A DNA stretch of 64,000 nucleotides from Leptogorgia sarmentosa (Eukaryota), in assembly GCA_964658305.1 (NCBI GenBank), contig OZ210884.1:1736001-1800000 (forward strand), given 5' to 3'. The notes beneath the pieces are model-generated. The model ran no database searches. It was not told the DNA's origin and worked only from the letters and a program-made list of their open reading frames with translations. Both the position numbers and the translations under genes were made by a program. Shown here one piece after another: positions 1,933 through 64,000 of this stretch (the stretch's first letter is position 1; each line of letters begins with the position of its first letter).

Positions 1933-2291
1933 CTCAAGGAAGTTCTCCAACGCCGGCGTCGTCCTCAAACAGCAGCATCGAGATCGTTGTAGGAATCACA
2001 GTTGCTGTTGTGGTTGTTGTTTCAATAGCGAATGTTGCCGTTTGTCTCCTGTTGAAACGGAAAGCAGATAAAAAGAGCACGGGAATAATGGCGAAGCAGG
2101 AAAACAATGGCAATGGCAATGGCAACGTTTCATCAGAAACCAACGAATTAGAAGAAATACCTAATCCAGTAAGTGAGTACAAAGAACCATCAGCATATGC
2201 ACAACTTGACAAATCCAAAAGAGTTCCAATTGATGAAAATTATGAAAGTTTGGGTGCCGTAAATCGTGTGGAACTGGAGACCAATTCTTAA
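1933..2291 (+). CDS. Terminal exon of a single-pass membrane protein (TM helix + tyrosine-motif cytoplasmic tail); upstream exons not identified in the window
   Basis: Acceptor tacag at 1928-1932, phase 1. Reads QGSSPTPASSSNSSIEIVVGITVAVVVVVSIANVAVCLLLKRK (hydrophobic stretch + basic stop-transfer), then YKEP, SAYAQL, YESL, stop at 2289-2291. Close paralog at 22300-22652 with the frame preserved through a 6-nt indel. Confidence 0.7.
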
Positions 2292-7800: not shown

Positions 7801-7975
7801 CTGCAAACTAACTACGTAAATATAATTATTGTACGTGGATTGCAAAATTATTGAAACAACTACGTATTAGTCCTACTAGAGACTAATCTTAAAGTGAGAC
7901 AAAATAAATGTTGATTGATTATACTGGCCTTTCAAAGGCGTTTCGTGCACATACTGTTTGAACCTATACTCTGTT

Positions 7976-25600: not shown

Positions 25601-26870
25601 CTTGCGATATCTGTCTTCAAAGCTGTTCTAATTAACGCTGCGGCACCTTGGTTCGGTTTATATTGTTCTTTAAAACACGGCCAAAACGAGTACGGCTATA
25701 TTCCGAAGTAGTAAGCTCTAATTTGGATGAAAGCGATCCAGCAACTTCTGCTGCGGCGTTCCCAAAACTTGTTCATACAAACTGGCTAAAGAATTACTCG
25801 TTAAAAAATTAAAAATTGCAAGTTTGAAATTGTTCGAAATTCTTTGTAATGCATTTTATAGGTTTTACCTTCCAATCAAACAGGTTATATTTTTTTGAGG
25901 GGGGAAAGGGGGGGAGGGCACACACGGTATACCAAATTAAGTTAGCCTTCTCTTAACATTATAAAACTTACCTGGATGCAAGAGCTGGTTTAATTCTTAC
26001 ATATTACATTGTATTAAATCAAACACCGATACTTCAGTTTTCGATACAACCGATATATTCATATGTCATAAAAACGCATGCACATGGTACATCAAATTTA
26101 GATAAATTAGATGTCAACCACAGTTACAGAGATAAAATTAAAACTATATACCTGCAAACTAACTACGTAAATATAATTATTGTACGTGGATTGCAAAATT
26201 ATTGAAACAACTAAGTATTAGTCCTACTAGAGACTAATCTTAAAGTGAGAGAAAATAAATGTTGATTGATTATACTGGCCTTTCAAAGGCGTTTCGTGCA
26301 CATACTGTTTGAACCTATACTCTGTTTTAACGAACAAAGATGTACCCCATAGCCTGCACTTCCTTGTCGCCATTGTCAGCATTACAAGAACTAAAAGCGC
26401 TGTTGCCGCAGCTGTTGACTATGTTCCTCCGGCTGCAGTATCTTCGTTGGCTGGCATCGATTGCACCAAATCCTATGAAGGAATCTGCTGTCCGACAATC
26501 TTTCTCATTATTTCCTATAATGCCGATTCGAACCCGTGCGTGATACTTGTCATCAGCAGCAACATTGAACCCTTGCCTTCCACAATATATTTGAAGTGAG
26601 GAATCGTCGTACAAAGATTTCCATGTGTTGCGAGGGATGTTAGTTGCGCGAAATTTTCCGTCTGCCAAGATATCGTACAAAGAATTTGCCTTGTAGCTTA
26701 TTGGAATAAACCGAACTGAATTAACTCTCATTCCAACACACATATGAGTAAACGGTGTGCTCCAGAAAGTTGCCAGTTTTGTTTCCACGTGATCCAGTCC
26801 GGTTTGCCCACCGCCTATTGAGTATTCTTTCTTATTGGTCCAATAAGAGGACGAATAAGAAAATGTCTCC
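22210..26870. repeat. Segmental duplication, copy 2
   Basis: Direct homology to about 1845-8521; for example, ORFs 7958-8248 and 26309-26599 translate identically. Confidence 0.9.
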
Positions 26871-29800
26871 TAAAATACAACAAAATGAACAGTGATAACA
26901 TTTAGAATTAAAGACGCAGTACTAGTAGTTATACAAATAACTACTCTGCGATTCGGACTTGGTTGGGAAAATACCCATGAAGGTTCAGCTAATTGCAATC
27001 GTCAAAAAATGTAATCTCTTTCTTTTACTTCGTACATGATAACCTAGACTTGCTTTGTGTTTCCAAAAAAATAATATCTAACAAAATGTTGCTGTAATGA
27101 CAACAGAAATTCTAAAAGATGCACTCTCGGGAAATTTGTATACACCGCACGAGTTATTTACTATAGCAGCTTAAATTTTTCCATTCTTAGACACATTAAC
27201 TTACCTTGCTTCCGTTTATTTTCATCACCATTGTCCACCCACCGCCTGAACATCCGGGTAATGATGTCATATGACAATACACTTCAGTGAAGTTTGTGGG
27301 TGTTTTAGCCTTGATACGATAGACGCCATTCTCGGCGTGACTGAGAAAATATAAATTTGGGGATCGTTGTTTTATACTCAGTTTGTTAATTGCCCGTATA
27401 ATTCTCATCCCTAGGGATAGCGCTACTTACGGCGGAGGCCCGAAATAGCCTTAGTATCGGTTGAGTATATATTTTATTAATACTAACAATATTATTATGC
27501 CTGATCTCTGTTAATTGTAAATGCACAAGCGTGTTGCAATGGACATTATAACAACTTCAAAAACGCGTAATTAGCAGCGAATTTGTTTCTGGCGATATTG
27601 TTGGGGAAGGAGAAGAAAACAATTTTTCTCCATGATTTTATCGGTAAAATGTCGCAGTATGTATTCAATTACGCCAGGGACTGGCAAGTACCAGATGAAT
27701 CTGTTCAAAACCTACCTAATACTTGCTCTTGTACAAATTCTGTTTCTATATTGGCCCCCTTCACAGAAATAGCCATGGGGCAATGCTTATTGTTTATACT
27801 GTAATGTGATAATTGTTCACTGCATTAAATTTTAATGTCTCGAGCTAAGTATCATAGAGGTAAGAAAGTATCGAATCGAAAGCATTTTAAAGTATCGAAT
27901 CGAAAGCATTTTTTGGTCACAAGCTTATTGTGTTTTACTAACAGGTTAGTAAATACTTGAGCTTCAGGGGCCGGGCACCACGAAAAATCTTGGATTTGAA
28001 AAAAAAACTATTAAAGCCGTGCCTTAGTCAACAATCTTTCATGTGTTTTTCCAAAGAAACCTACTAAAATGGTAGAGTTTGGATTCCGAAATGGTCATTT
28101 CCGGCGATCTAGAGATCCTAAATGTTAAAAATGTTATCGCTCGGCGCCAACCATGATGGCGTCCCGTGAGTTCCACCCCCCCCCCCCCCCCCCCCACATT
28201 GTTGAAAACATTCCTACGTCCAAGTGGTAATTTGTTCAAATTGTGCAAAAATTCAATTCAACTCGAACTCTTAAAGAAGTATCAACTAAATAGCAACAAT
28301 TTTTTGCAACACTTTGCAACAAACATTTTTTTAAATATTATTCAAATGAAATGTGGAAACACCGTAAATGTATTGCGTATGCAATGGAATCGCAATACAA
28401 CAGGAGTCAATTGTTTCAAATACATTGCGAACTTACAAATGGACATTCACTGGAACTTAGAGACTCAAAATTGTTTCCATAATCATTCGTATTTCAACAC
28501 TACACTTCACATTTTCTCAGTAAAAACATTTCAACATCGCCCTCATTTCTCGGCGGCCGCAGTCTTTGAATACGTCATTGCAAACAAAAGGTCATCGCTT
28601 GATTACAATTCAAGTAAGCTAATCGCAGATTGGCTAACAAAATTAAATTGATATAAGCTCATCGGTGAATGGCTATGTGCTAACACATTTTGCGGTGTAG
28701 TAAGGTACGGGACGCTTGAGATAGCAATATACCTGCTTTGAAGATATAAAAACAACAGCGAGGTATATTTACGTTTTAAACAGTGTAATTTTCAGGGATT
28801 ATTCTAACGAAATATTAAAACTTCAGTGGGCTCCAAAACTGTTTGCGTGTGTAGCTGTTGTGAATGCATTTTTTATTCATGAAAAATATTACAGAGCTCA
28901 CATAATGTTTCATGTAAGTGAGTAAGACCTTTACATTACATGCTGCGTTTCGCCAGTTCATGATATATACCCTAAAGTCTTATTGGAGAAGTCTAACCAG
29001 TGGTCGGAACCAAAAATTGAGGTGATAATAATTACATTTTTTTCACGAATATTGGAAACGTGGCAGCAGAAGTAAAAACTCGAATATACCAGTCATTGCG
29101 AAGTTCGTTCGTAGAAATATTTTTACAACTCCAAGAAGTGGCAGCGAATTATCACTCGTAATTTTTAAAGCTTTAAATCTTCATCTTTTTCATCTTGGAA
29201 TTTTACACATTGGAAATTATCAGTCATGCATGGTCGCTTGAAACATATAGCAAAATTAACGGCATTGTTTTCACGATTTCTTGTTATCACCTGTTGAGAG
29301 GTAAAAACTGGCGAACAAATTCTTCCGTTTCTAAACTGCGCCAGGATCAACAAATTTTATGAATCGATCGCCGGAAATGACCATTTCGGAGTCCAAACTG
29401 GACCTTTTTCGTTGGCTTCTTTTGGTATACAAATGTATGATTGTTGACTAAGGGCCGGCCCCCTGGAAACTTAAAATTGGGGGCCCCGTTGCTCCGCCCG
29501 TTTCCAACGTCCCTGCATGGTAATTCCAAAGAAAATTTCTGTTTCCCTATTTTGGCTTGCTATGGTACTGGTTTTGTATTGCTTTAAATACTGCACTCAG
29601 TTCATATTTTCAGGCACAATATTGGTGAGAATGACTACCCTACATCTGCTGTTGCCGGGCTTTGAGAACTAAAAGATATCAGAATTTTTCTTTTCCCGTT
29701 CTAGTTCAGAACTCGTAAATAAAATTCACCTGTTTTCCAATAAGGCTTGATGGCACGATTCGTATGTGGTATCATCTATATAACATAATACATGGTAGGA

Positions 29801-38710: not shown

Positions 38711-40302
38711 TGTTAAATATGTCTTTATTCTGCACGAGGAGGGAATCGTTACAATTGGTCTATAGTATTCCTACTGTTCGTAAAGATCTTCCGTTGTCTT
38801 CTTAGCGTTGTTTAGTCGGTTTCTTCGTTGAGTTCGTCTGTTTGAGTTTCGGTAGCCTTTTCATTTGATACGCTTTTACTTCGGTCTACGTCCACTGACT
38901 CAAGTTGGGATGGGGAGTTCCTTTTATACTAACGGTCGAGGGGATCGTTGTCCACGTGAACAGCCAGGTGGCACGATACTGAATCCACCAATCAGCGTTC
39001 ATGTGTTGTACTATGAACCCTCGTTCCAGCTCTCCAATTCTGTTTGTTTAGGGTGTTGTCGCACTTCTCAAGTCAGTTTTACGCTCATTCTACCGATACT
39101 TAGATAGGTTAAGACTAACCTACTTCTTTACTTATTAATAACAAAATATTTGACGTGCAACCTCTAGGCTTAGCTTTACGAGTTAACTTAATTTAGAAGA
39201 GAATTTAACGAACTGAGATTTTGGTGACGTATTATTGTAATTACTCAACCGCGCGAATTATCTTGAGGCGTGATTGATGGCAAAACCCAAAGCATACGCA
39301 CGTGTAAGTACAAAGTTTCTATTTACCCAATGTACACGGTCTGTTCAAACACATCTGGCTTTTTTCCTCACTTTTCGATCAAACTTTGACAGTATCCAAG
39401 ATTGTTTATCTTCATTGTTACGCAGGTGCATAATATTGCGTAAACATTAAAGACAAGTTCCGCAGGCAAACTAAACATTACGCACGTGGAGGAGCTGCAT
39501 GATGAGTGACATTCTTGCTTCAAAATCCAAATAAAGTAAATTATAAATTTTCGAACCTACGCAGAGTGTCAATCACGGTTCCAATTAGGCGGATAGAGAA
39601 GATAAACAATCTTGGATACTGTCAAAGTTTGATCGAAAAGTGAGGAAAAAAGCCAGATGTGTTTGAACAGGCCGTGTACATTGTGTAAATAGAAACTTTG
39701 TACTTACGCGTGCGTATGCTTTGGGTTTTGCCATCAATCACGCCTCAAGATAATTCGCGCGGTTGAGTAATTATAATAATACGTCACCAAAATCTCAGTT
39801 CGTTAAATTCTCTTCTAAATTCAGTTAACTCTTAAAGCTAAGCCTAGAGGTTGCACGTGAAATATTTTGCTATTAATAAGTAATGAAGTAGGTTAGTCTT
39901 AACCTATCTATAAGTATCGGTAGAATGAGCGTAAAACTGACTTGAGAAGTGCGACAACACCCTAAACAAACAGAATTGGAGAGCTGGAACGAGGGTTCAT
40001 AGTACAACACATGAACGCTGATTGGTGGATTCAGTATCTTGCCACCTGGCTGTTCACGTGGACTACGATCCCCTCGACCGTTAGTATAAAAGGAACTCTC
40101 CATCCCAACTTGAGTCAGTGGACGTAGACCGAAGTAAAAGCGTATCAAATGAAAAGGCTACCGAAACTCAAACAGACGAACTCAACGAAGAAACCGACTA
40201 AACAACGCTAAGAAGACGACGGAAGATCTTTACGAACAGTAGGAATACTATAGACCAATTGTAACGATTCCCTCCTCGTGCAGAATAAAGACATATTTAA
40301 CA
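38711..40302. mobile_element. 1.6 kb foldback element with ~700-bp TIRs, TGT...ACA ends and 4-bp TSD (Ginger-like / inverted-LTR-like, non-autonomous)
   Basis: 38711-39413 is the near-perfect reverse complement of 39598-40302, with a 184-bp spacer. TSD AAAG at 38707-38710 and 40303-40306. Confidence 0.88.
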
Positions 40303-43700: not shown

Positions 43701-46407
43701 TATTTAGCTATAGACTAGCTTTGCTTAAATTCAGACAGCACCCTTAATCACCAGCAATATAGTTTGAAATTATTCCACCAGTTTCGTGGAAGTGAGGATT
43801 TAATTCGCCTTACTCACTCTTTGAGGCCAGTCCCAAGTGTTACGAAGATTTTTTCAACTGAAAGATAAAATGTTTTGCTTTTCAATATCTGATTCACGAG
43901 AACTTTATTCATTAATACGGATAAATGCAATAGACAACCAAAACTTATAATGTAAATATTCAATAATTCAAAAGAATTCAATAATAATTTTGAATATTCC
44001 TAGTTCATTCAAAATGGCTCGTTTAGGGCAAAGTCAATTGGCGTTGGAAATTGTAAATGTATATGTTTGCATTTTTATCGTTGTTAGAGCTCAATATGTA
44101 TTTCCATCTAATGTTCTGGCAACAGAAGGAACTCCCAGAGATTGAACAAGGAGCCAAAATTTGGTCTTGGCAAACTATGATTCTTCTAATCAACATGATT
44201 ATTGACAGAGCTCCCCAGTTTGGCAAAATTGGATTAGCGCCAACTCCGATCGCCGAAATTTTCAATTGGCCAATGGCTACCGCTGCTGGGTTCGCAGTAT
44301 TCTCTAATGAAAAGGTGAGAAATTTTAAATTGGTTGAGGCTGATTTTGCAATATACATTATACGTTATACGTTATACATTAAACGTAATACATTATACAT
44401 TTTATTATTTCAAATAAGTTTAGAGTGGGTAAACTCGTCACATCTGCTTGGTAAAATACATAATATGACACAATTATGTCGTATATTGAAAATTAATATG
44501 TGACATTATGACGTCGACTAATTATGCGGCTTATGTTAAAAGCGGCGAGAAATAGATGTTCTCGTTTATACATTATACATTATACATTATACATTATACA
44601 TTATACATTATACATTATACATTATACATTATACATTATACATTATACATTATACATTATACATTATACATTATACATTATACATTATACATTATACATT
44701 ATACATTATACATTATACATTATACATTATACATTATACATTTTACATTATACATTATACATTATACATTATACATTATACATTATACATTATACATTAT
44801 ACATTATACATTATACATTATACATTATACATTATACATTATACATTATACATTATACATTATACATTATACATTATACATTATACATTATACATTATAC
44901 ATTATACATTATACATTATACATTATACATTATACATTATACATTATACATTATACATTATACATTATACATTATACATTATACATTATACATTATACAT
45001 TATACATTATACATTATACATTATACGTTATTATAACTTTTATAGGCCATCATAAGTTTTTATATTTATTGTTATTATTTTCTGTTAAGGTCAACAAACT
45101 ATTCAAAGATATTTTAAATTACTGGGGAACATTTCTACAAAGTGAGGAATCCGTGTATGTGTTAAATGATGATGCTCGTAAAGGATGGTTTGGGAAAGAC
45201 GCTATGGAAACCATGCCAAATTTCGTTGAAGAATTTGAATGCGATCCATCAGCACCTCACTACGGATTCAATTCGTGGGATGATTTCTTCGGGCGAAAAT
45301 TCCGCGAAGGAGTGCGTCCAGTTGAAGATCCTGATGATGATAGTGTTGTTGCAAATGCCTGCGAGTCAGCGCCCTATAGGCTGGCGTACAATGTGAAGAA
45401 TCAAGATATATTCTGGATCAAGAAATGTCCATACTCTTTGGGTAGGAGAAATATTTATATTGTACTAGTGTTGTCAATAATTTTAGAGTATTTCGACCAA
45501 CCTCGACATGTAGCACACAGTGGCGTAACGCAACCTCTGGGGGCCCTCCGACAGTCGACCACTTCGGGGCCCCCTTTGTTCCACTAATTAATAGGCTGAA
45601 TTTACCACTTATGTCTAAACAACGGCAAACCTCAGTTTGTTACAGAATAGACTCGATCCCGAATTTGAATTTAATGAATTTCGCTTCTCTCTTCCAAACC
45701 TGCCTATCGGTCTGTTTTTCGTATTTGAATTCCCCAGAAATGTGCTATCAATTTTTTATGTTCATCTTGTCGGGGGCCCCTAAAGTTCGGATTGGACACC
45801 CTGACACACCTCCGTTACGCCACTGGTAGCACAATTGAGTCTCAAACCTCAATTGAGTCTGAAACCAAAAATTCATTTAGATCACATGCTCAACAACGAT
45901 AAACTGGCAGAGAGATTCTGTGGTGGAACAGTTTACCAAGGCTTCCTAAGCCCGACCAGTTATCATCGATGGCACTGCCCAGTCTCAGGAACTATATTGA
46001 AAACTGATTTGGTTGATGGTTCGTATTATTCCCGACCCTACGACATTCAAACTGGTCTCTCCTCAATCCACGAATCTCAGGCCTACCTATGTCAGGTTGC
46101 CGCCCGAGGTATTGTATACATCCAAGCTGATAATCCTGATATTGGTTTGATGGCCTTCGTCTCGGTTGGCATGCTAGAAGTATCCAGCAATGAGGTTACA
46201 GTCAAATCTGGCGATCGCGTTAAAAAAGGAGACGAGATTGGTATGTTTCATTTTGGCGGTTCAAGCCATTGCCTCGTGTTCCAGCCTGGAGTGAAACTTC
46301 AATTTGATTTGCGTGGTCAAACACCCGGCACGCACCACAAAGAGTTGTTCGACATTCCAGTCCGGTCAAAAGTTGCGGTCGTAGCGAAACAAAAAAAATT
46401 GCGATAA
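40795..46407 (+). CDS. PsiD-like pyruvoyl-dependent decarboxylase (phosphatidylserine decarboxylase family with fungal/bacterial-type N-terminal domain; 'L-tryptophan decarboxylase-like')
   Basis: Exons <=40795-40942 (...LHPPVKALMNAILTDP), 44088-44314 (ELNMYFHLMF...WPMATAAGFAVFSNEK), 45090-45441 (VNKLFKDILNYWGTFL...GFNSWDDFFGRKFREGVRP...ANACESAP...), 45881-46407 (GGTVYQGFLSPTSYHRWHCPVSG...GMLEVSS...KKGDEIGMFHFGGSSH). GT-AG introns in phase; 417 aa from ATG 40795. The true start is uncertain (see findings). Confidence 0.88.
43052..43340. mobile_element. MITE with CCC...GGG termini, 2-bp TSD and dense CACATGTG/CACATATG subterminal repeats (animal EnSpm/CACTA-like)
   Basis: CCCTTATGAAAAATACACAT...ATGTGTATTTTTCATAAGGG flanked by AT on both sides; the interior is tandem 11-mers GATTCACATAT/GAACCACATGT. 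Confidence 0.75.
44566..45026. repeat. (TTATACA)n heptamer tandem array, about 65 units, in intron 2 of the decarboxylase gene
   Basis: Near-perfect array with one visible variant near 44743; a shorter degenerate array lies at about 44353-44400. Confidence 0.97.
45518..45825. mobile_element. hAT-like MITE
   Basis: TIRs CAGTGGCGTAACG...CGTTACGCCACTG; exact 8-bp TSD GTAGCACA (45510-45517, 45826-45833). Confidence 0.88.
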
Positions 46408-49948: not shown

Positions 49949-52900
49949 TCAATTCCACCATTTCAAAGTGATGTTTATATGTTTTACGCATTGTGCGGCC
50001 GTTATTCGATTTTCTGGCTCAGTTTCCCAGCAATTCTTCATGAGGGCATCGAATTGAGATATTACACGTTGGCAACCTTTTATATGTTGTGGCCTCAGAC
50101 CATCCATAATTCTGCTCATCAATAACTTCCCGTCAGGGAACTCACTGAAGATTCTTTGCCCATACCATAATTCCCACAACACCAGACCGAAGCTGTAAAT
50201 ATCTGCGCTAGTCATATAACGTTTCGATGCAGTATATACCTCGGGAGCCATGTAGAGTGGTGTGCCGGCAACAGTTCCTGTGATATCCTTCTCGTCTTTT
50301 GCAATACCAACATCAGCAATTTTCAAAGATTTGCGATCTAAGCCAACCTTGAATAAATTAAAGTTGTTAGGTTAGTTAGATTGGAATTTTTGTTAGGAAA
50401 CTAAATGTAAGTAAATGGTAGTGAGATTTAAAAATGGGAACAAGGGATGGAAGGGTTGTCAGAGTTGGAAAACTCAACTTATTTCCAGCCAGGGGAATGT
50501 AAATGAAATTTTTAAAGCGACGAAAAACACCGTGATAACGACTCGATCAGTTCGATCATTTGTATGTCGACATTTCAAATTGCTAACCCTAAATTAAAAT
50601 GAACTTGTAATGCAATAGAACACGAAAAGGAGAATATACCTCGGGATCGGACAGCAGAACACTTGGAGGATTGGACCCCTCACACATATTTGTTAAATTA
50701 TATTTTTCGGGGCATCATTACATCATTACAGCATTACCGCAATTTCACATCCACTTTAGATGTAATTTGTCTTACATATTTAAATAACAAAACAAATACG
50801 GATGACGGATAACAAAATGTCAACGGTCAACATGGGTACATATAAAAATTAACACGAATTTAACACAAATTAGATATAGTGCCGTTACTCTACATATTTA
50901 TTATACACAAGCACTGTCCACTGCACTGCAGTTTTATAGTTTGTCTCTATTTAATCATAATTATGATGCTCTGTAAACGTTGTTCCCACGCGATTTCTTC
51001 ATTGCAAAATTGTTGATCAGCCATGAAACTGAAAGGCTTCGCAGCAGTTTCGCTTCAATGCTTAGACGTACCAGACTGTTCAGACTTTCTGTCCAATTGA
51101 AGATCGAATGTTATTCTTGATCAGTTTAAGTTTAGAAAACGACCTTCGAAATCATGAAACTTAAATAAATACGTAGTACGATGCAGTGGCGAAGCCACCC
51201 CGACTTCTGGTCATGAAAATGCAAATTTTTCTGTATTTATAGACCGTAATATAAGGAATCAATTTCTAAAGAAATGAATAACATAATGATTTAAATTTGC
51301 ATTTGCATGTTCAAATGTCGGGCTGGCTTCGCCATTGCTAAGATGACAATTTTTGGAAACACTGTCTCCAGATTATTCGCAACGATTAAGCGGTAAAGGC
51401 GCGTCTCGATCGATTCAACGCACAGTAAATCATTGTCGTCATGATCATCTTTTGTGATCACGCAAATTTTGTGATCAAGCAAACCACGGAGGCCCAAATT
51501 GATGCGCAAACGGAGCTAGGGCCCCAAATTAAATTGTTATGCGAAAGGACGAATCGATAAACGCAGGGGGCAAATACGCAAATCTCGAAGGGCCCCAAAT
51601 GTGAACCACAAACCACAATGGGCGAATCATTTTCCAGAAAAGGGCGTGGCCTATCGAAGAGCGGGGCCACTGTAAGCGCGGGGCCCGAGGCATATGCCGC
51701 ATCTTCCACGTGGTCCAATTACACGTCTTCCCCTGCATGTTTTAGTGTGTAATTGAGCCCGCAGCTATGTTTTCCAGCAACGTTAACAAGATGCATGCGT
51801 GATTATGAGATATAGAATGCGGGCAGTTATTAATCTCGTAATAAAATTATCTCGCAATAAAATTGCCGATTCAAATTTTATTTAATTAAAATGAAGAAAA
51901 TTATCGATCAACTGAAATTACGATAATCCGCAACCCCAGATTGAAAATACTCTAGCACGCGCACGTGCGAAATTTAGAACGATTTCCATTCGTTGGGTAA
52001 CAAAACTTGCTGTATTTTAAGAAACTTAATTTTGAGATATTCAGCTGTGTGCATTACACGTACAATATCTGCTATAGTAGTTTGTGTTTGCAATGTAAAT
52101 ATACCGTTGGCAAGGGCGCAAATGAGCTATAGAACTGTCCATGGCAATCAGTGGGGACATAGAAATAGAATACAAATTAATAAACATTACAACTAGTTCT
52201 TACCAAAATATTATCCGGCTTTAAATCCCTGTGAACAAGTCCTTTTCCGTGTAGGTACTCCAAACCACAGGCAATATCTTTTGCCCATTTCAACATCTGA
52301 GAGACGGCATTGTGGCGTGTGTCTTGCGAAGCTCGGCCTGGTAAAGTATCCTGGTATTTTTCAAGATACATTCGCAAACTCTCATCACAAAGCTCCATGA
52401 CCAAGATGAACTTCCTTCCACCAGACTCCTCTTGCAATACTGATCCGTAAAACTTCACCACGTTTTCGTGATTAATGGATCTATAGAAAATGTTATAAAA
52501 TTGAACCTTGAGGATAATGAAATTCAAGATTCCACTTGTTATTATTTCCACTACAGGGTGTGGAGAAAAAGCGGTAATCAAACTTTGGCATGTCATTATG
52601 CGGTAATAAATTTGTATATGCACGTATACTAATTTCTGCATAGTCATGAATGCAGATGCATGTATTACTCTACTTCACTTCGGTGTTGTTGAGCACTCTG
52701 TGCGCGGAGATAGTGGGTGTACATTCGCACTACTGCAAAGCTCGCGTCCCTTGTGGTCGTTTGAGTGCTCTGGCACCATGACTCTCTGCGCATGTGTGGA
52801 TGCGTGATGCGTCGATGTATTGGTGTGTACCACTGGCACCATACAATGTATGCATTCCTCCCATTTTTGGTAATAAATTTTGTCTGAATTATATTTATCC

Positions 52901-55900
52901 TTCAAAACACAACGCCTCAACTCCTAATATTAACTAGAAGATCTTTTTTGTTCCTGCGTAAACGAACAAATATATTGTTTTATCCAGGGGCGGCGGAACA
53001 TATTCTATTTTGGGGGGGCTAAATTTAAAAATGTTTATCGTAGTTTTTGTCTAGGTGGAAACACAAACGGCATAGCGTGTAGTCACTGTAGTGATGTCTC
53101 CTGCTTTGAAAAATTGTTCAAAATCTACAAAAATACGGATACCAGGATATGCAATTGTGCATAGTGCATACTGTAGAGTGTAGATCATTTGATAATCTCA
53201 TGACTCAGTGTCTCGCATTCTGACATTCTTTATGTATTTTTGGGGGGGCTAAGCCCCCCCACTTTTACTTCTGGGGGGGCTTTTAGCCCCCTAGCCCCCC
53301 CTGTTCCGCCGCCACTGGTTTTATCGTTGACCAAGTTATTTTGAAATCTCGTTTAAGTTCATGAGTATATGTTATTGCAATGTGGCTCAGTTGCTATTCT
53401 CAATTATGCGTGTGTTAATTGTATCTGAAAATTATAGACCAGTTGACATTGTTCATGTATAGTTATGAAGAAAAGCTTTGTGTTTCGAAGGATAAAACCA
53501 AAATTTACCTAACATGGGACGATTTCGTGCGCATACTATACATAGATTTCTTCTAGTTGTATGTAATTATGACAAAGTCTGGAAGAGAAGTTAATGGAGA
53601 GGTTAAGATATCCCGATTTACGCAAACGGGTGCGGGTAGCGTTATTTTGTCAGTGAGATTTGCATCAATATCTTTGTAGCTATTTAAATTTAATCCCTGT
53701 ATTGTTCTTTCGTAAAAGACCATAAGCTGATGCAACAAGCAGAAAAGTTTGGAGCAAATATGTAAATACCGCAGAAAATTTCACTGACAAAATAATGCTA
53801 CACGTACCCGTTTGCGGGAATTGGGATATCTTAACCTCTCAGACATCGAAATTAACAACCTCGTACCCAGGGTCTTATGATCTCCGCTCCCGCTGCTCTC
53901 CCGCTACGACAAAGACCCTGGTACAGGCTGGTCACGTGACACCTTAATTAGTTTCATCCCGTGGGGGGAGGGATGTGCAACGTGAAATTTTTGTTTGCCC
54001 ATTTCAAGCGTGGACTGTGGCCGCCATTTGTGATGTGCGTGCCGTGAATATTTGATCAAAGCTTTCCCAGATGCGAAAAGGTTGTGAATGCCAGGTTTTT
54101 TACACTTGTTTGCACTTCGCTATCATCAACAGCTTATATTACGATCTAGTGTTGATGTAGTGTTGTTTCACCGTGCTTTTATACAACACAATAATATGAT
54201 TTTCATTTCGTAGTCAAGACACTACGGTGAAAAGTATACTCCAGGGATGTGTAAATAATTTGTCTCATTGTTAAAGACAGGTTACAGTCGCTTCTGCGCG
54301 TCGGTTCTGCTCATAACAAATGTGGACCACATTGTCCAAATTTCGCATTTTTTGAAACTTTTTTGAATCGAAACGCTGGTTTATATTGTTTTAGGAGCAT
54401 AGCAAACCCGAAAAGTGTCAAATATTCAGTAGTTCAATCAAATTTTACAAATATAGCAACTCAAAATGAAAACAAAGCGTTTGTTTACATTAGTCTGTAA
54501 CCCCCTTAGCAATATACGAAAACAAGCATTCATCCGTAGTCCGTAGCAGTAGTCCGTTGTGAAGATCTTAAATTCCCTATTGTCCATGTGAACAGGTCAC
54601 TGGGCAAAGGCGAGCCGCGAATGCAACTGTTTGGCTTTATTTACATGACTTGCGAAATGCGATAGACTTACCCACCCCTCCCTCAGTATTCAATTGAAAA
54701 CACCCCAGATTCTGGGGTGTCACGTGACCAGCCTGTACCAGGCTCTTTGTCGTAGCGGGAGAGCAGCGTGAGCGGAGATCATAAGACCCTGGGTACGAGG
54801 TTGCGAAATTAATACCACGAGCACCGCAATTTTATTCTTCAGGAAAAATCAATGGGGGAAACGGGGGGGGGGGGGGGGGCGCAATTGATACTAAGAACAT
54901 TGGCAAAAAAAGAATAATTATTCCCGTACCCTAACTTCATCTCTTGAGACATCAAGTCGTGGGCATTCTTTTCAGTGAGCATGTCTTTACAGATTTTTAC
55001 AGCAACATCCAAATGCTCGCCCTCGGCTGTTTTCAGACTTCCCTTGAAAACATCTGCAAACGTACCACTGCCAATTGCACAGCTGCCCCATCGTAAATCG
55101 GCTTTCTTTATGTCCTTTGGAATGATTTTCTCGATTGTGAACAATGAAAGTTCTCCCCTAACATTTTCACAATCGGCATTAACAGGTGCATATTTTTCTG
55201 CTAATGCGGACAAGTATGCACTTTCATATATTATGTAAGTGATTAAATCAGCATCCGCATTGATCAGATTCGTAAAATTCGATTTCATTTCCTCCAAGTT
55301 AAGTTGTACCATATCAAACTTTGGCGTGATGAATGATTGCAGGCTTTCTTTACTTCTGTGATTGTTCAAAAATTTTCTTGATTCATCAGAAACGTAGGAT
55401 TTTTTATCTGTTTTGAATGTCTTTTTGGCGATGTTCTTAATACCAAAATCAACAACAGCTTTTCCAGCCACGATTGGGAGACAAAGAACACCCCCAATAA
55501 TTGCAATAGGAAACCAAAGAGGACTTGTTACACCGATTACGACTTTAGAAAGGGTGCTTAAAAATAGATTGGGAATGGATGAAGGGTTGACCATTATTTC
55601 TTCGACTTCTTTGATTTGAAATGCCAGAGAATCGCTATTACTTTTGATTTTTTCCATCATCGAATCGTGTGCGGATGTTATCACGTGGTTTTTCGCCTCC
55701 CAATCATTAATTTCTTTACCAAATCTGTTACAAATGGCTTCCCGCACTTTCGCTTCCACTTCGGGAGTTAACTCTTCTTCCGGAAAGTCATCATCGATAC
55801 CGCTCCAGGTACAAAATTTCTCTTCGAAACCTGGTTTTGTTAAATACACATGAAGAGATTCGGCAGCGTTGTCTATTTTAGATTTAAGTTCATATTCTAG

Positions 55901-58900
55901 TTCTTTTATGCACTTTTTATATGTTTGTTTAACAACTTCCAGTCTCGTTTTTGCCATTAACAGGTTCAGGAATACGTTATCCTTCTTGTTCTTACTATCG
56001 AGAACAGTAACAATGAAATGAATTCTAGAAACAAGATCGGAAAGCCACCTACATAAAAATGGTTCAGGTTAGCAGATATTTTAGAAACCAATGCTAGTGA
56101 GGTATATTGAAAATGACAACAATGAAAATGAAATTCAATTATGCAATGTACTCGAAACTGATGCTCTTTTTCTTCACCATTATATTATTTAGGCCCAAAG
56201 AGTGCTCGATATCATATAGGTAGAGAATATAGTATAAGACCTGACGATTTCTCTTCGATGAAACAGGGTGTAGTGGCACCTTTTTGAGACTCGTTACTTT
56301 GGGCCTTTTCAGCCAAAATACATTAACAAAGTACTCACCAATGTACGCAAAGAGCGACAGATTAACAAATCTAAAGAAGAACCTGAACAGCCAAAGAGGA
56401 CAATAACTTTACCTTACATAAACAGAAATCTGAAATGACCGCCAGACTACTCCGACCATTTAATATTAACGTAGCACACAAGCCAACACATAAAGCAGGT
56501 CACGTTTAAAAAAAGCAGACAAAACAACGACAATTGAGACAAACAATGCCACAGTCGGACGAGCACAGACAAGACATGCATCTGAATTCAAAGAGGGATG
56601 GTACAGCACAGACGGTAATACGAAAAATCGACAAATTGACATTCCTACAATCTACATACAACTTACGACAACACGTACTGTTGGAGCTCTACTAATACGT
56701 TAATACGACTAATACTTCAATGCAAACTTCCCTGAGTCTGAATTCGATAAACAACAATCCAGTCATTCCAATAAAACCACCCATGACAACAAAGTTCAAT
56801 CAACCATGACAACGCATCCTTCAACCACCAATAATATCAGTTCAACCTCCAAACGGCCACGGTCAGACGCTCTCGACGTATACAGGACCAACAGCTCGAA
56901 TCTCAAATATAATACGTACATTTGTAAATGATTCAAATATTTGCTGAAGAAGGTTCGGACTAACGAGTCGAAAGGTCAATCCAGAGAACTTGCGTCAGTA
57001 TTAATATGCCTGGAGTACAAATCTTGATGGGTAAGTTCTAAGTTTCAGGGTTAAACGATAAAAGTTTGTTTTGTTATAATATTTGGATATGGTGTATTTA
57101 ATACTTTAGGATTTTATGTGTCTGTTTACACCAGCGACTTTTGCTGCGATTATTTTTACTGACGTGATTCCTAAATGAAATCGCCGATGCACCCCACGAT
57201 TAAAGTTTATTTTTTCAATAAAATGAGTTTCGAGATTGTATCGAAAAGGTGCCACATTCAGAATTTTTTTTTGAACATTTGGGTGTTTTCAGGGAACAAT
57301 TTCACTTCAACGAGGTGATATTTTTTTGGTCTTGCTCGAAATTTTTCTCGCAAAAGTCATTTCTGAAAAGAAACTTTAAGAAGAGCGACTAAGCTGATAA
57401 AACTGAAAAAGTAACATGGATAAAGAACGAACAACGAAGACATTTATTAAAGCGATGGTACCATACTCAATATCGTCGTCTCTCATAGCTTTTTAGATTT
57501 AGCATACTTTCATAATCATAAAAGTTTCAATCCTATCCGGAAAATATGCGGGCAAACATATTTTAAAGAAATTATACATGTTGTAAGTAACCAGAAACTG
57601 TGCTGTCTTGCAGCTAGACGATATCGACGTGGGACATGACTATGTTTCGGACCTTCGGTCATATTATTACACACATTCTATGCTTACTTACGCGTGCGCA
57701 CTTACTCTACTATATTTGTTTAATAAATAGTATTGGTAACGTTAGGGAATACTATTGTGATTGCGTGATCAGAAAGGGGAAAATTATGGACATTTAGGGT
57801 TCGCAACCCCACCCCCCATACCAACTATGTGCTAGTGACGGCGCTGGGTGTCTGTATTTTTTTAACAAAAAATTCCAATGCAGAAATTCCTTACCTACAT
57901 TCTTTCTTCAGTCTTGCCTTTATCGTTTTGAACAGCATCGATTTAACTGAATTGACAACCACTCGGAACTGTGGACTGATCATACCATAGTCTTGCCATA
58001 TACTTGCTTCGGTGGTGGAAAGTTTAACAACTTGAGACTGACAATCCACGCCCACCCAATATTCCTCCAACTTCTTTTTAATATGACCTTCAACGTTTTC
58101 ACGTTTTGTGTCAACGCAATCCCATTTATTGCAGACAAATACGGCAGCTTCTGGGATGAATTTTTTCGCAGATTCTCGAAGCACATCTGTAGCATTTCCC
58201 GAATCGGAGGTTTCTGCTGATTTTTTAGGCTCATTTTCTGATGTGAAGCCTGCCGTCAACTTTGGAAACAGAACGGAATTTTTAGGAAATTTTTGAGGCA
58301 GACCTTCAATATCCCCTGACGTGAAGCTCGTCGAAAACGGTTTAAGCACATCACTGGAATCCTCCGAGACGAAGTTTTCAGCAGTTTTTTTAGACATCCT
58401 TTCCGAGATTAAGCCTTCTGAAGCTTTTTTCAACAGATCTCCGAGCTATAATGAAAATATCATTGCTAACTCAGAAATTTTTTTGACTATCCTGCACCCC
58501 TCACATTTACTTGATATAAAATTGTCAATGGTAAAAATGTCGACATGTTTAGATATATCAAGCCAATAGCGACAAATTATCTTAGAAATCGTCGATTCAA
58601 TCCGGGTAGAATTATTTCCGACACCAAGGAATGATGGTTTGTCAATGGTAATTATTGTTCAATTGCAATGCTTGTCGAGGATAGACATGATTTGGGCGGT
58701 ATAAAAAAGCAAGAATAAAACAACTATAATTAAAGCTGCTTTTCTGAAATGTTATAAAATGAAACAAACTGCGAATATCATCATCTTGTAACTCAAGATT
58801 TGAGTCATTTAGAATAACAAGACACAAAATTCGGGTATACCATTTCTACTTTATTTCAAAGTCATTGTCAAACCAACTAATATTTGCATAGATCTTTAAA

Positions 58901-61900
58901 GGTGGGTTACAGTCCCTTCTGCGCATGTGCACTGAGTTTGTTATGAGTAGACTACTCATGTTACAATCACAGCAAGTTCCTAGTCCTACAGAGTAATAAC
59001 AACACCCGCGGCCGCCTAAATGTTTTCACTGTCGTCGGCTACAAGGAGCTATGGCTGATTCAGGCGCGCCAAGTTCCGTAAACCTTCAAAAACTAAGCGT
59101 CGTTGCAGATCTGACACTAGAAAGGTATACGACAAGAAAAGAGACACATCTAATTTATTTTTATTCGATGCTTTCGAAAGGTGGAGAGCGTTCAAACAAG
59201 AAAGCAACCTGAAGACTGACCAGAATGTGGCAGATTTTCTGCTCGATCATTACGCACGCAGAAACACGTTATGGTGAGTGTGTTGATAATAATTATAACT
59301 AAACCTTTGACCTTTAATGATGATTTTACGCTTTAATGTACTTCCCTTTACATATTTTATATGTTTTAGAAAACTCAAACGGTGGGGTCAACAACAATGT
59401 GACCTTTGTCTTCACAAGAACAATCAACCCCTATTTGTAATTCATATATTTTCCCCGAGCCAAGGTGCGAAGCGCCGTCAAGGCTTTAGCCCGGGGCGAA
59501 GGTAATAATTCCGCACGGCTATTTGCACCCGGGTAATGGGCAGCATAGCGGAGTCCAAAGTTGCTCGATTTGGCCGCCCGATTTTGGGTCATCGTCGAAG
59601 GGTGGTCAAGATGATCTGAAAAGCACTGGTATGGTTAAATTTAGCATGCTCGGCTAGCCTCGTGTGTAAATTCCGAATTGTTTTGCCTATATAAGTTGTC
59701 GAAAAACCCGGACAGGAAAATTAGTATACTACATCACTCCGCTCTAAGGTAGTCTAATTTCGTCAGTCTCACGTGAAATACTCTTTAACAATGAAAAACA
59801 AGAAAAGGGGAACTTTGAATATATGATATATATATATATATACGATAAAGTTTTGGTTAACGAAATGCCGAAAGAGTGCTCGATACCATATAGGTAGAGC
59901 AAATAGTATAGTTTTGCCTCAAAAAGGTGCCACTACAGCCTGTTTCATCCAAGAGGAATCATCAGAGCCATCTGATGATCCCTCTTGGATGAAACAGGCT
60001 GTAGTGGCACCTTTTTGAGGCAAAACTATATATATATCTACTCTCAACTTTCAATGAAAACCCCATCTCCGGTATAATAACATTTAGTCTGAGTCCTAAT
60101 TTTTGATCCGGAGGCTGAAGACGCTTTGAATGAAAGTTTAATTTCGTACATAATTATGTAAATGGAAGCGTGCGTCTATATGAAACCTCTACATTCTTTT
60201 TCAATTTTTGTCCTGGAACACATGCAGTAGCATCTATAGTTTAGCTATTAGTGGGATGTCCGAAAAAGATTACAAGCAGGACAGCTTATAATAATGCTGA
60301 ATTTGCAATAGTCAAAGGTTGAGTGTACACTAAAAAATAGTTACATTGTTAGCAAGACAAAAAACTTACCCGGTCTCGAGCAACACCTCCGGCATTGTTA
60401 CTATTTATCACATATATAAAAAAGAACGCCTTGTTAAGATACTCTGCTACAATTTTGTCCAATTCCGGATTTTCTCCAACTCCCGGGCTGTCAACAATAA
60501 TCAATCCATCCTAACGAGTGAAATGGAAAGGAGGTAGTCAGCAAGCAGAAGAAAATCAGGCATTCATCGATTTCAGATAATATTAGATGAATTCGAACTT
60601 CTGTATATCGCTGGAAAGTTTGTTTTGGATTTTCGGAAGTATATTGAACACTTTTAAATCGTATTATTTCTTGACTATTCGCATTAAAATGGATTTTGCA
60701 ATAAAAAATGGCATTGAAGCAATCGTTGAAGTCTGTATTTTTAACTGTTGCAATTTTAAAATGCATCACTTTCGACTCGAAGGCCAAAACCGTAATTGAC
60801 ACATTGGTTCTTTTGTAAGCAATCAGAAAAAACTTAGCTATCGCTAACGAATCGCTATGAAGCTGGGATATATACTCCAATTGAGAGGGTAAAACCCCAA
60901 ATCGACTGGACGCAGCATTACACAGTAATTTTCTGATAACTTTCTAGTTTCAGAGCTTTAGATTAGACGGTAACAGACGTAAAAGCATTACTATGTTTTC
61001 AGGTCAACAATGAGGTTTGTTTGTTCTTAGCTTTTTCCGATTCCAGTTGATATACCAGACCTTTCTTATAAGTCTGGCTGGAAAATACTAAATTCCCGCG
61101 AATTTTGTGTTCGTCACTTTTATTGATTTGGGTAAAGGAATATTTTTTTTCACTACCGGCGGTCCTCTCAGAAAGATGTCGCAAAATTCGATAAATACAA
61201 TCACTAAAACAAAGAAACACACTTGCCTTCAGTAATTCATTCGACCAAAATATTTCAATCTTTTTGATCATCAAACCATCATGACGGTGATTTGGAATGT
61301 CCAGATACGGTAATAATTGGTCAGTGTAGCTTTTTCCTTCATTTGGCTCCAAAAAATTATATTCTTCCGATTTTCTCTTTGCGTCATTGTAGTGAATTTT
61401 GAATTTCTTCGAACTTCCATATCGCACTTCGCAGATCGTGGAGGTTAATGGTAATTGTGCGTATGGTAAGATCTCTTCGCCCAAAAATAGGTTAATCAAG
61501 CTGCTTTTTCCTGAAGAAGTCTCACCTACACGAAAAGGAGTTAATTAACTATGACAAACAAACAGTCATTATGTGAATGTGGTTATAAGGAGAAAATGCT
61601 TGAGTGGCTATATCTAAATAACGGATATTATTATATGCACAAGCGCTGTACTGATTGGTTCTCTACTAGCAGGATAATAGCTCATATCCTGCTAGTACAG
61701 AAATGTAAACAAAATGGCTGAAAGAGCGAAGCCGGAATTGAAGTTTTCAACAGTAAAAACGTCTTTGCATCTTGTTAAAATTGATATTCGCTACCTGCAA
61801 ATAGTATTACGTATTCGTTTTGCAGCAGTTGTTCTGTCTTTTTTTCAATTTCATTCATCACGATGGACCCGGCACCACGATCCAAGATGCTAAGTAGTAC

Positions 61901-62005
61901 GTCCTCACAATCCTGAATGATTAGCTGAACTTTCTTGTAAAATTTATATAATTGTTTTCGCGCAGAAATATCTTCATCTCGTGCCACTGCAAATTGGGAA
62001 AACGC
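49949..62005 (-). CDS. Dynamin/mitofusin-like GTPase - hydrophobic hairpin - protein kinase fusion (DSTYK-like architecture), 5'-partial, >=998 aa
   Basis: Exons 62005-61795, 61525-61227 (GETSSGKSSLIN P-loop; GC donor), 60510-60370 (IIVDSPGVGE, G3), 58445-57895 (VCNKWD, G4), 56048-54930 (helical region, VVIGVTSPLWFPIAIIGGVLCLPIVAG, then GSGTFADV and VAVK), 52480-52204 (HENVVKFYG, HRDLKPDNIL), 50347-49949 (KIADVG, GTPLYMAPE, DIYSFG). Sum 2997 nt in frame; the start exon was not located. Confidence 0.88.
51184..51337. mobile_element. Short hAT-like MITE
   Basis: CAGTGGCGAAGCCACCCCGAC ... GTCGGGCTGGCTTCGCCATTG; degenerate 8-bp flanks GTACGATG / CTAAGATG. Confidence 0.65.
52985..53317. mobile_element. 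hAT-like MITE
   Basis: TIRs CAGGGGCGGCGGAACA...TGTTCCGCCGCCACTG; exact 8-bp TSD GTTTTATC (52977-52984, 53318-53325). Confidence 0.88.
53856..54803. mobile_element. Non-autonomous TIR element with ~85-bp TIRs and 9-bp TSD (Mutator-like by TSD length)
   Basis: CAACCTCGTACCCAGGGTCTTATGATCTCCGCTC...GAGCGGAGATCATAAGACCCTGGGTACGAGGTTG; exact TSD CGAAATTAA (53847-53855, 54804-54812). Confidence 0.88.
59967..60008 (+). ncRNA. Minimal type I hammerhead-ribozyme-like motif (Penelope-like-element type)
   Basis: Stem I GCCAT/GTGGC; core CTGATGA (59972-59978); short stem II TCC-CTCTT-GGA-T; GAAA (59991-59994); palindromic stem III ACAG-G-CTGT; predicted GUA cleavage triplet ending at 60003. Inverted copy at 59908-59965; degenerate copy at 56241-56278. 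Confidence 0.55.
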
Positions 62006-63171
62006 CTACAAAACAAGAATATTGATGTATTCAAATTCAAATACATCCATCTAATTGAAGTAATTAAGACGGAGATTTTCTGTATGTCACGCATCTCGCG
62101 CTCAAAACTCAAATTCGTCCAACTACAAGTTTCGAATTTTGAGGTTTCTCAGTCGGCAGACTAACTTAAAAAGCTTGACCGGTTCATAATTTATGACTTA
62201 TAAAAAATTAAAACATTTTGGTGTGTACGCCAAAGAGAAAATTACGTCAAAGCTTTAATTATGTTGTGCTGGTTATACGAAATTTGCTGCTCCTAATTTT
62301 CATATTCCTTTCAGTTTTTCAATCAACACAGTTTGAATGCTAGCGAATTGTTTTCTCAATATAATTATCATATAGAACAATTTGATTTTGGGAAAAAGAT
62401 TTCGGGTTTTAAACACATATCGTCGAAAATACGCGACATGGAAAAATTTATCTTCTTAATAATTTTCTCCTTGGCGTGAAACATGCACAGTTAGAACGAC
62501 GATTTGACAAATAAATCGATTAAAATGCCATCGCAAATGTATGAGCAGCATTGAAAAAACCGCGAAAACAACCATATCTTTTTGTTGACCTGAAAAAATA
62601 GGAATTTTGTTAATTAAGATACTAAACACGTTCCAGTAAAGTAAATCTCTTGCGATTTTATCGATGAAAGTTTGCAAAGTACTGCCCAACCTTCCACGAA
62701 TTAAGAGATCTTTTACGACTTAAAAATAGCGACTTATTTAGGAGGCTGACGATCCAATCTGTTAATGTCCAAAATTTTTCGTCACGGATACTTTTGCAAC
62801 AGTATTGAAGCAGCGAAAGAATTATCTAGCCTTAAATTCATGAAAAAACATCCGAATTTCGAAATATATATTGCGGGCTTGTCATTTCGAAAATTTTTCA
62901 TACAGGCCAAGATTTGGTATCTTTAAACACTAGCCAGGCATTACGCGGATGGAAATTTTTTATACAATTATTTTATTACGTTGATTTATGATTTATTTAA
63001 CTTCGCCTATTACAGATAACAGTTAGGCCGGGATACCACAACAGTTAAATAAAAAGCAATTACTGTGGACCCTTAAGTATCTTAAAAGCATGCACTATGT
63101 ATATATACAGTAAATCTGTCAACAGCACGTAAAATGTTGGCTAAGTGGCCGCGAATTGTTACATTTTAAAC

Positions 63172-63420
63172 CGGCAGATCGTTCACGTAAAGTAGAAACA
63201 GTATGGGGCCCAGTATTGAGCCTTGAGGAACTCCCGAAAGGACAGGTCTTGCAGTTGATGTTGCTCCTAAGACAGTTACGCGCGGTTTGCGATCAGACAA
63301 ATACGACTGGAACTATTGCAGAAGATTACCCGCCATGTGCTTGAGCAGTGGACGATGTGGTGGGACCTAGATTCGTAGCAATGTCGCCAGCGAGCAGAAT
63401 ACATAGGTATAGATGAGATC
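63172..63420 (-). mobile_element. Internally deleted CR1/L2-type non-LTR retrotransposon remnant
   Basis: Minus strand reads HLYLCILLAGDIATNLGP (2A-like, about 63415-63362). After a frame break it reads [52 protein letters not shown], a typical RT segment with an internal stop. Confidence 0.85.
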
Positions 63421-64000
63421 TATTGTTCTTGGTGTTGAAATCTAGGCCATAGCGGTGTTAATACCCGGATGGAAAGTTGTATTTTCGCAGTACTTTATCA
63501 CGCGTTAAAGTCCATAGCAAACACAGTTTCTCAGATATTACGGCAAGTTCTGAAGCAATGACTATATTGGTAGACGTTACTTTCTCGTTGAATCTCACAA
63601 AGTCGGGCAGCGATCTTGTAGCTAATCAAAATACAAAGATGAGAGAGATGGTCGCATAACAGAATTTGCCAGAAGATATAAGTTTCATAGAAACCATTTT
63701 ACCAAATTTTATCTTGCTAGAAGATTCCAATTTTCAATTATTGGTAGTAATTAATTCCAAGTTGCCAATTAAAATTACAGATTAAGTTCAAATTGATCTT
63801 GCGATGTTGTCCGGAGCTGTCGCGTGCGCCGTTTACTTGCGTGATAACGGTCGTAACGGTCGTAACGGTCTCAACGGAAAATTTCAATTTTCGACACAAC
63901 AAATGACAGAAATCCAATAGTTTAGGCAACAATAACTTTCAATATTTCCAAATTATCGTAAGTCCCTGATCCAGATGATACTATCAGAAGTATTTTCTAT

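What the first reader, a model, noticed from the sequence alone, without database searches (positions are those of the whole stretch)
49949..62005. Dynamin/mitofusin-like GTPase fused through a membrane hairpin to an intact kinase
Seen: complete G1 (GETSSGKS), G2-like (PLTS), G3 (DSPG) and G4 (NKWD) motifs, long helical stalk segments, a Pro/Gly-rich hydrophobic stretch, and a kinase with VAVK, HRDLKPDN and APE but DVG instead of DFG. Established: that GTPase + stalk + paddle layout is typical of bacterial dynamin-like proteins and mitofusins; DSTYK is the known animal kinase with a related N-terminus; several dynamin-superfamily GTPases act in immunity. Inference: a poorly characterised invertebrate family in which GTP-dependent oligomerisation on membranes could switch on the kinase, for example as a membrane-damage or pathogen sensor.
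Basis: partly seen in the sequence, partly recalled or inferred. Interest (0 to 1): 0.7.

Follow-up and report, generated by a model that had tools for sequence, protein, structure and literature searches.

The report
Mitofusin-kinase fusion related to DSTYK
This gene, most likely from a soft coral, joins a mitofusin-like membrane GTPase to a protein kinase; it belongs to a large, apparently unstudied family of marine invertebrates that likely switches signalling on when it assembles on membranes, and it indicates that the unexplained front part of the animal kinase DSTYK is an inactivated copy of such a GTPase.

Summary
Seven minus-strand exons splice into one 998-codon frame: dynamin-type GTPase with intact G1-G4, helical stalk, hydrophobic hairpin, Ser/Thr-type kinase. 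The first exon (~60 aa) was not found. The kinase is not quite intact: the alphaC Glu is Gln (Glu in 137 of 148 relatives); DVG is the family norm. Relatives occur in corals, amphioxus, hemichordates, molluscs, nemerteans, brachiopods and an annelid, often as arrays, some with dead or no kinase; the nearest are from Dendronephthya. Models of two relatives match MFN2, Fzo1 and BDLP. It is not the DSTYK orthologue (DSTYK profile: 82 bits versus 438-479). But DSTYK's N-terminus proved to be a motif-dead dynamin-like GTPase, and both kinase introns of this gene lie at DSTYK intron positions, so the two likely share an ancestor. Likely mechanism (inferred): GTP-driven assembly on a membrane brings the kinases together. 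An immune role is plausible but untested. Nine literature searches found no description. This scan noted the family before in Trichoplax and a protist.

The parts
61795..62005 (-). Exon 1 of the model (internal exon; neck helices leading into G1). True first exon missing.
61227..61525 (-). Exon 2: G1 (G|ETSSGKSS, first codon split by intron) and G2 Thr98; ends in a GC donor
   Evidence: Dynamin_N E 1.1e-13; BDLP E 1.1e-6
60370..60510 (-). Exon 3: G3 DSPG (60481-60492) and the family motif AGGVxxDR (Ala in place of conserved Gln)
57895..58445 (-). Exon 4: copy-specific Ser/Thr/Lys/Glu-rich insert, G4 NKWD (58119-58130), end of GTPase domain
58161..58418 (-). In-frame low-complexity insert; segment is 104 aa versus median 27 (max 42) in 148 relatives
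54930..56048 (-). Exon 5: helical stalk, hydrophobic hairpin, return helix, kinase N-lobe (GSGTFA, VAVK, alphaC with Gln769)
55442..55552 (-). Pro-kinked hydrophobic hairpin, aa 567-603, only stretch of the protein with 19-residue hydropathy above 1.5 (max 2.29)
52204..52480 (-). Exon 6: kinase, up to catalytic loop HRDLKPDN (52210-52233)
49949..50347 (-). Exon 7: DVG (50306-50314), activation segment, APE, C-lobe, stop

Best explanation
The gene encodes one protein that joins a mitofusin/BDLP-class GTPase with intact motifs, a helical stalk and a hydrophobic hairpin to a Ser/Thr-type kinase, and it likely works as a membrane-assembly switch: the hairpin would insert into a membrane, GTP would pair the GTPase heads, and this would bring the attached kinases together for trans-activation. 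Shown: gene structure, motifs, family membership, fold class (through two relatives), and kinship with DSTYK. Inferred from MFN/BDLP: hairpin insertion, head-to-head pairing, and the kinase lying next to the head because the last stalk helix matches the C-terminal helix of MFN2/BDLP. Inferred from gene-family behaviour (arrays, rapid divergence, dead-kinase and kinase-less paralogues): a role in defence or membrane-stress signalling at endolysosome-type membranes. This particular copy likely has reduced kinase activity (alphaC Glu is Gln).
For: One open frame over 7 exons. All 27 relatives of 800 aa or more among 29 scanned carry Dynamin_N plus kinase. GTPase motifs intact in 128 of 149 rows, deviant in 13, gapped in 8, so GTP binding is under selection. 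Hairpin hydropathy >=1.6 in 101 of 149 rows. Model of P0007 (Dendronephthya; 36-45% identical to the window protein): residues 1-615 match MFN2 31-756 at Z 27.5, rmsd 7.1, 374 aligned. Model of kinase-less P0290: BDLP top by Foldseek, TM 0.51 over 718 columns; MFN2 Z 26.1 (rmsd 21.2, 377 aligned), Fzo1 Z 24.2 (7.6, 336), BDLP Z 21.1 (6.2, 551). Nine distinct Oculina locus tags in two number ranges on one contig, four Dendronephthya clusters. Kinase dead in 37 of 149 rows. One amphioxus model adds CARD+TIR, one coral model HEPN_DZIP3. The relative DSTYK sits on late endosomes and phosphorylates STING (PMC11933320, passages) and is needed for vacuole fusion (PMC7012607, passages).
Against: No experiment on any member; no paper found. 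The hairpin is missing or polar in 34 of 149 rows, so membrane insertion is not universal; it is low-confidence in both models. The window protein itself was not folded; models are of relatives. Extra-domain fusions may be merged gene models: FMO 'fusions' in two other records look like that, and only 3 extra-domain types were seen among the long records scanned. Gln769, Gly774, Ala214 and the insert all depart from the family. Counts include isoforms and near-identical amphioxus records.
Confidence: 0.55

Rival explanations
1. The main job is mechanical: tethering or fusing vesicles (endolysosome, vacuole or symbiosome membranes) as mitofusins do, and the kinase regulates the GTPase or neighbours rather than reading out assembly.
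For: Closest folds are fusion GTPases; kinase-less and dead-kinase members exist while GTPase motifs persist; Dstyk regulates vacuole fusion in zebrafish (PMC7012607).
Against: Kinase catalytic residues are kept in 110 of 149 rows; housekeeping fusion genes are usually conserved and few, whereas this family is 25-37% identical and lineage-expanded; 34 rows lack a hydrophobic hairpin.
Confidence: 0.25
2. This copy is a pseudokinase-like modulator or a decaying paralogue that acts on active family members, or no longer acts.
For: Only row with Gln at alphaC among 110 with Lys/Asp/Asn/Asp intact; three further departures and a unique insert; first exon not found.
Against: 998 codons without stop or frameshift, good splice sites; all G motifs and the other kinase motifs kept; Glu770 next to Gln769 might compensate; tree end branch ordinary (0.44, median 0.42); the first exon can lie beyond the window end.
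Confidence: 0.15
3. The GTPase and kinase are two neighbouring genes, or the gene is the ordinary DSTYK orthologue.
For: No RNA of this organism was available; some relatives are auto-named 'DSTYK-like'; an AU test did not reject a window+DSTYK clade (p 0.149).
Against: Stalk, hairpin and kinase N-lobe share one 1119-base exon; eleven relatives are continuous frames on short contigs; DSTYK kinase profile scores the five long DSTYKs 438-479 bits and the window 82.5; kinase identity 29-35% versus 63-87% among DSTYKs; the window protein groups with Dendronephthya paralogues (SH-aLRT 96).
Confidence: 0.03

Closest known systems
DSTYK / Dusty kinase (RIPK5, SgK496)
   Same: Same length and order: dynamin-like G domain, long helical region, kinase. 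N-terminus aligns to the family (hhalign 94.6-96.1%, reversed control 0.3%); Atlas features of a DSTYK N-terminus match Dynamin_N and mitofusin clusters at 0.96. Both kinase introns of the window gene fall at DSTYK intron positions and phases.
   Different: DSTYK has lost G1, G3 and G4, has no Dynamin_N hit above E 0.1 and no matching hydrophobic hairpin; it is highly conserved, while this family is divergent and multi-copy. The DSTYK identity of the fetched loci rests on a recalled motif, not on a database name.
Mitofusins MFN1/MFN2 and yeast Fzo1
   Same: G-domain motifs, neck bundle completed by a C-terminal helix, membrane hairpin.
   Different: C-terminal kinase; no Fzo_mitofusin (PF04799) hit in 10 relatives at E<=1; 15-17% identity; multi-copy.
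Bacterial dynamin-like proteins (Nostoc BDLP 2j68/2j69, IniA, Campylobacter DLP1/2, SynDLP)
   Same: Best sequence hit (E 1e-21) and whole-length fold match with paddle position.
   Different: Animal, intron-bearing, kinase-fused; a wide score gap separates the family (>=189 bits, 59 hits) from the next DLPs (<=73 bits, 18 hits, mostly unnamed).
Roco proteins (LRRK1/2), recalled as GTPase-kinase fusions
   Same: GTPase placed before a TKL-like kinase in one chain; plausible logic of nucleotide-controlled dimerisation.
   Different: Ras-like ROC plus COR instead of dynamin fold; no Roc or COR family hit in relatives; no membrane hairpin.

Membership tests
DSTYK orthologue | Highly conserved Dusty kinase domain | tested here: not met
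   82.5 bits versus 438-479; 29-35% identity
DSTYK orthologue | Dusty signature motifs GRGQYG, TDLGFC, GTP[IV]HMAPE as seen in fetched loci | tested here: not met
   window has GSGTFA, ADVGIA, GTPLYMAPE
DSTYK orthologue | Non-catalytic (motif-dead) N-terminal domain | tested here: not met
   window G1-G4 intact; 0 of 5 DSTYKs hit Dynamin_N below E 0.1
DSTYK-related superfamily (common ancestor) | Homologous dynamin-like G domain before the kinase | tested here: met
   DSTYK matches other DLPs equally well (95.9%), so this alone does not show sisterhood
DSTYK-related superfamily (common ancestor) | Shared kinase intron positions | tested here: met
   phase-2 intron 5 codons after alphaC Glu in 13 of 20 loci; phase-0 intron after the catalytic loop in 15 of 26 loci; loci are partly redundant; other kinase families not tested
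DSTYK-related superfamily (common ancestor) | Kinase domains are sister groups | tested here: inconclusive
   DSTYK profile: 43 of 149 family rows beat the best PDB kinase (IRAK4, 81 bits); family profile scores DSTYK 115-147, below FGFR2 163; no outgroup kinases for a tree
DSTYK-related superfamily (common ancestor) | Homologous stalk | tested here: inconclusive
   stalk alone 6.8% versus 3.4% reversed; colinear only in a forced global alignment
BDLP/mitofusin class of dynamin superfamily | G1 GxxxxGKS, G2 Thr, G3 DxPG, G4 N[K/R]WD | tested here: met
BDLP/mitofusin class of dynamin superfamily | Neck and trunk helical bundles with hydrophobic tip | tested here: met
   models of relatives; hairpin in window
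BDLP/mitofusin class of dynamin superfamily | GTP hydrolysis, head pairing and membrane binding | not testable with these tools
   needs biochemistry
Mitofusin/Fzo proper | Fzo_mitofusin domain PF04799 as C-terminus | tested here: not met
   no hit in window frames (E<=0.01) or 10 relatives (E<=1); kinase follows instead
Mitofusin/Fzo proper | Mitochondrial outer membrane location | not testable with these tools
   none
Canonical active protein kinase | beta3 Lys, catalytic Asp/Asn, Mg-binding Asp, APE | tested here: met
   K752, D859, N864, D878, E902
Canonical active protein kinase | alphaC Glu | tested here: not met
   Gln769; register confirmed by alignment and by intron position
Roco/LRRK | ROC-COR tandem | tested here: not met
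   Dynamin_N and BDLP fold instead

The most novel reading that the evidence does not exclude
Animals ancestrally had a dynamin-kinase: a mitofusin/BDLP-class GTPase wired directly to a kinase. Marine invertebrates expanded it into an innate-immune or membrane-damage sensor family with active, dead-kinase and kinase-less members, and the only broadly conserved branch is DSTYK, whose 'non-catalytic' N-terminus is a pseudo-mitofusin that itself docks on and helps fuse endolysosomal membranes.
Probability: 0.3. Interest if true: 0.87.

Novelty: new variant of a known kind. Interest (0 to 1): 0.66.

Why it matters
DSTYK is linked to human disease, zebrafish vacuole fusion and STING signalling, yet papers read here call its N-terminal part simply non-catalytic (PMC8636471) and leave its fusion effector unknown (PMC7012607). 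If that part is a dead mitofusin-type GTPase, its late-endosome location and fusion role become directly testable. The invertebrate relatives keep the GTPase motifs, so they offer an active model of the ancestral machine. They would also be a kind of dynamin-superfamily protein with built-in kinase output, expanded in corals, amphioxus and molluscs, where immune sensors are poorly known.

Tried and rejected
Word-index search with exon 5 for longer proteins found nothing; the profile search did. No whole genome is held, so paralogue number and a true DSTYK in this organism were not checked. No RNA holder listed. Missing first exon: donor scan, tblastn and a coral N-terminal profile found nothing. 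Homodimer prediction of a relative's GTPase head gave no verdict (0.43; a control scored 0.60). Atlas search of the small N-terminal domain of P0290 gave no usable hit; the Atlas query for exon 5 did not complete. Two profile searches did not list DSTYK; it was reached by a motif scan. A DSTYK N-terminal profile found no PDB sequence at E<=10. Prokaryote genome scan gave 1 locus of 84 pattern matches, a Der/EngA-like GTPase, rejected. N-terminal introns are not clearly shared with DSTYK; one phase-0 pair lies 1-2 codons apart in an uncertain alignment. No vertebrate, insect or nematode names appeared, but these searches are word-limited and do not show absence. An internal intron removing the exon-4 insert was considered; I saw no good donor by eye, not formally tested. 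Peng et al. 2006 was not held. One search was in the wrong frame and is not used.

Full report
Gene model. The finding is a spliced animal gene on the minus strand. Seven exons (62005-61795, 61525-61227, 60510-60370, 58445-57895, 56048-54930, 52480-52204, 50347-49949) join in phase to 998 codons and a stop; one donor is GC. Pfam places Dynamin_N on exons 2-3 and kinase families on exons 5-7. A family profile hits exactly these seven frames in the window. Contigs from three DNA runs of one sample cover exons 2-7 almost without differences; exon 1 lies among repeats and is not in the listed pieces. Relatives have about 62 more N-terminal residues, and no such exon was found in 62006-64000. No RNA holder was listed.

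Family. Exon 5 alone found 202 representatives at E<=0.001, 150 listed. Of 29 longer hits scanned, 27 carry Dynamin_N plus kinase, one only the kinase, one only the GTPase. Names come from soft and stony corals, amphioxus, hemichordates, bivalves, gastropods, octopus, nemerteans, Lingula and an annelid; most are 'uncharacterized', some auto-named 'DSTYK-like', 'mitofusin-like' or 'bacterial dynamin-like'. The window kinase groups with three Dendronephthya proteins (0.98, 89 rows; SH-aLRT 96, 44 rows), so the host is likely an octocoral. Nine Oculina locus tags lie in two number ranges on one contig. Eleven relatives are continuous frames of 913-1061 aa on contigs of 3.1-5.8 kb, as expected of assembled mRNAs; so the fusion is real in the family. 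In one search the 59 best hits score 189 bits or more and the remaining 18 score 73 or less.

Motifs. In an alignment of the window protein with all 148 stored proteins of 780 aa or more (isoforms and near-duplicates included), G1 Lys is present in 142 (6 gaps), G2 Thr in 139, G3 Asp in 146, G4 Asn in 147. GTPase motifs are intact in 128 of 149 rows; kinase Lys/Asp/Asn/Asp are intact in 110, dead in 37, gapped in 2. DVG is the family norm. The window copy departs in four ways: Gln769 for the alphaC Glu (Glu in 137 of 148; only Gln among the 110 otherwise intact rows), Gly774 for Arg (129), Ala214 for Gln (135), and a 104-residue segment where relatives have a median 27. HRDLKxxN and GTPxYMAPE point to Ser/Thr specificity (general knowledge). 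The only hydrophobic stretch is aa 567-603; 101 of 149 rows have such a hairpin and 34 do not.

Fold. The spliced window protein was not folded; two relatives were. P0007 (pLDDT 80) matches MFN2 over residues 1-615 (Z 27.5, rmsd 7.1, 374 aligned) and Fzo1 (Z 26.9, rmsd 6.3, 328) besides kinases, and BDLP over 696 columns. Kinase-less P0290 (pLDDT 79) gives BDLP first by Foldseek (TM 0.51) and MFN2, Fzo1, BDLP, SynDLP, IniA by VIA-align (Z 26.1, 24.2, 21.1, 21.0, 19.4). A profile of the N-terminal part ranks BDLP (1e-21), MFN2 and MFN1 first among solved structures. The hairpin is low-confidence in both models. The alignments run to the C-terminal helix of MFN2 and BDLP, which in those proteins completes the neck beside the GTPase head (general knowledge); the kinase follows it, so it would sit at the head end, on the same side of the membrane.

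DSTYK. A scan with a recalled DSTYK motif fetched 32 loci; five hold frames of 837-940 aa. Their kinases are 63-87% identical to the first row. Their profile scores them 438-479 bits, the window protein 82.5, the family at most 100, the best PDB kinase 81. So the window gene is not the orthologue. An AU test did not reject window+DSTYK as a clade (p 0.149), which reflects a long branch that can attach anywhere. The DSTYK N-terminus aligns to the family G domain at 94.6-96.1% probability (reversed control 0.3%) and equally to other DLPs (95.9%), with G1, G3 and G4 lost; Atlas features match Dynamin_N and mitofusin clusters at 0.96. The stalk alone is not significant. Both kinase introns of the window gene match DSTYK introns in place and phase: five codons after the alphaC Glu in 13 of 20 loci (14 flagged, L016 dropped as uninterrupted) and directly after the catalytic loop in 15 of 26 loci. 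Several loci are redundant and other kinase families were not checked. Against sisterhood: the family profile scores DSTYK (115-147 bits) below FGFR2 (163). I judge a single ancestral fusion likely (about 0.75), not proven.

Mechanism. Shown: architecture, motifs, fold class, family, DSTYK link. Inferred: hairpin insertion, GTP-driven head pairing, kinase trans-activation. For a defence role: arrays, fast divergence, dead-kinase and kinase-less paralogues, and single records with CARD+TIR, HEPN_DZIP3 or SCAN, which may be merged gene models (compare the FMO merges). DSTYK lies on Rab7/LAMP1 endosomes even when kinase-dead and phosphorylates STING (PMC11933320, passages), and zebrafish Dstyk is needed for vacuole fusion with no effector known (PMC7012607, passages).

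Literature. Nine searches returned no paper that describes this family or calls DSTYK dynamin-like; I saw listings only, except passages of PMC9573974, PMC10492769, PMC8636471 (N-terminus described as non-catalytic, citing Peng 2006, which was not held) and the two above. In one search the term was read as 'dynaminn'. Subscription journals and supplements were not searched. Earlier notes of this scan describe the same family in Trichoplax and a protist; they are unchecked AI notes and not counted as support.

Verdict. Real gene, member of a large and apparently undescribed mitofusin/BDLP-kinase family, paralogous to DSTYK; this copy is an atypical member. New variant of a known kind; interest 0.66.

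Noticed in passing
window 45063-46407 (+): Phosphatidylserine decarboxylase gene fragments with the PSDC domain (PF12588 E 2.7e-12; PF02666 E 3.3e-28), a type I recall from fungi and bacteria; tail-to-tail with the finding and interrupted by a repeat near 45579-45766.
   Followed up: partly
window 1899-8527 and 22271-26875 (+): Segmental duplication at 91% identity carrying a small single-pass membrane exon and, on the minus strand, a 180-aa Cys-containing frame (7976-8521, 26327-26869) with no Pfam hit.
   Followed up: no
window 44540-45050: Long tandem repeat of a 7-base-like unit (reads as HYTLYII in several frames).
   Followed up: no
window 38711-40302: 705-base inverted repeat pair at 98% identity, possibly a DNA transposon.
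   Followed up: no
window 53859-53980 and 54715-54810: Inverted repeat arms inside intron 5, high-copy in the DNA runs; likely a MITE.
   Followed up: no
P0068, P0094, P0105, P0111, P0174, P0246 and others: A mainly molluscan clade keeps GTPase and kinase but has a polar stalk tip instead of the hydrophobic hairpin (34 of 149 rows).
   Followed up: partly
N-terminal ~60 aa of relatives (e.g. P0290 1-62): Small conserved two-helix domain of unknown family; no Pfam or Atlas match.
   Followed up: partly
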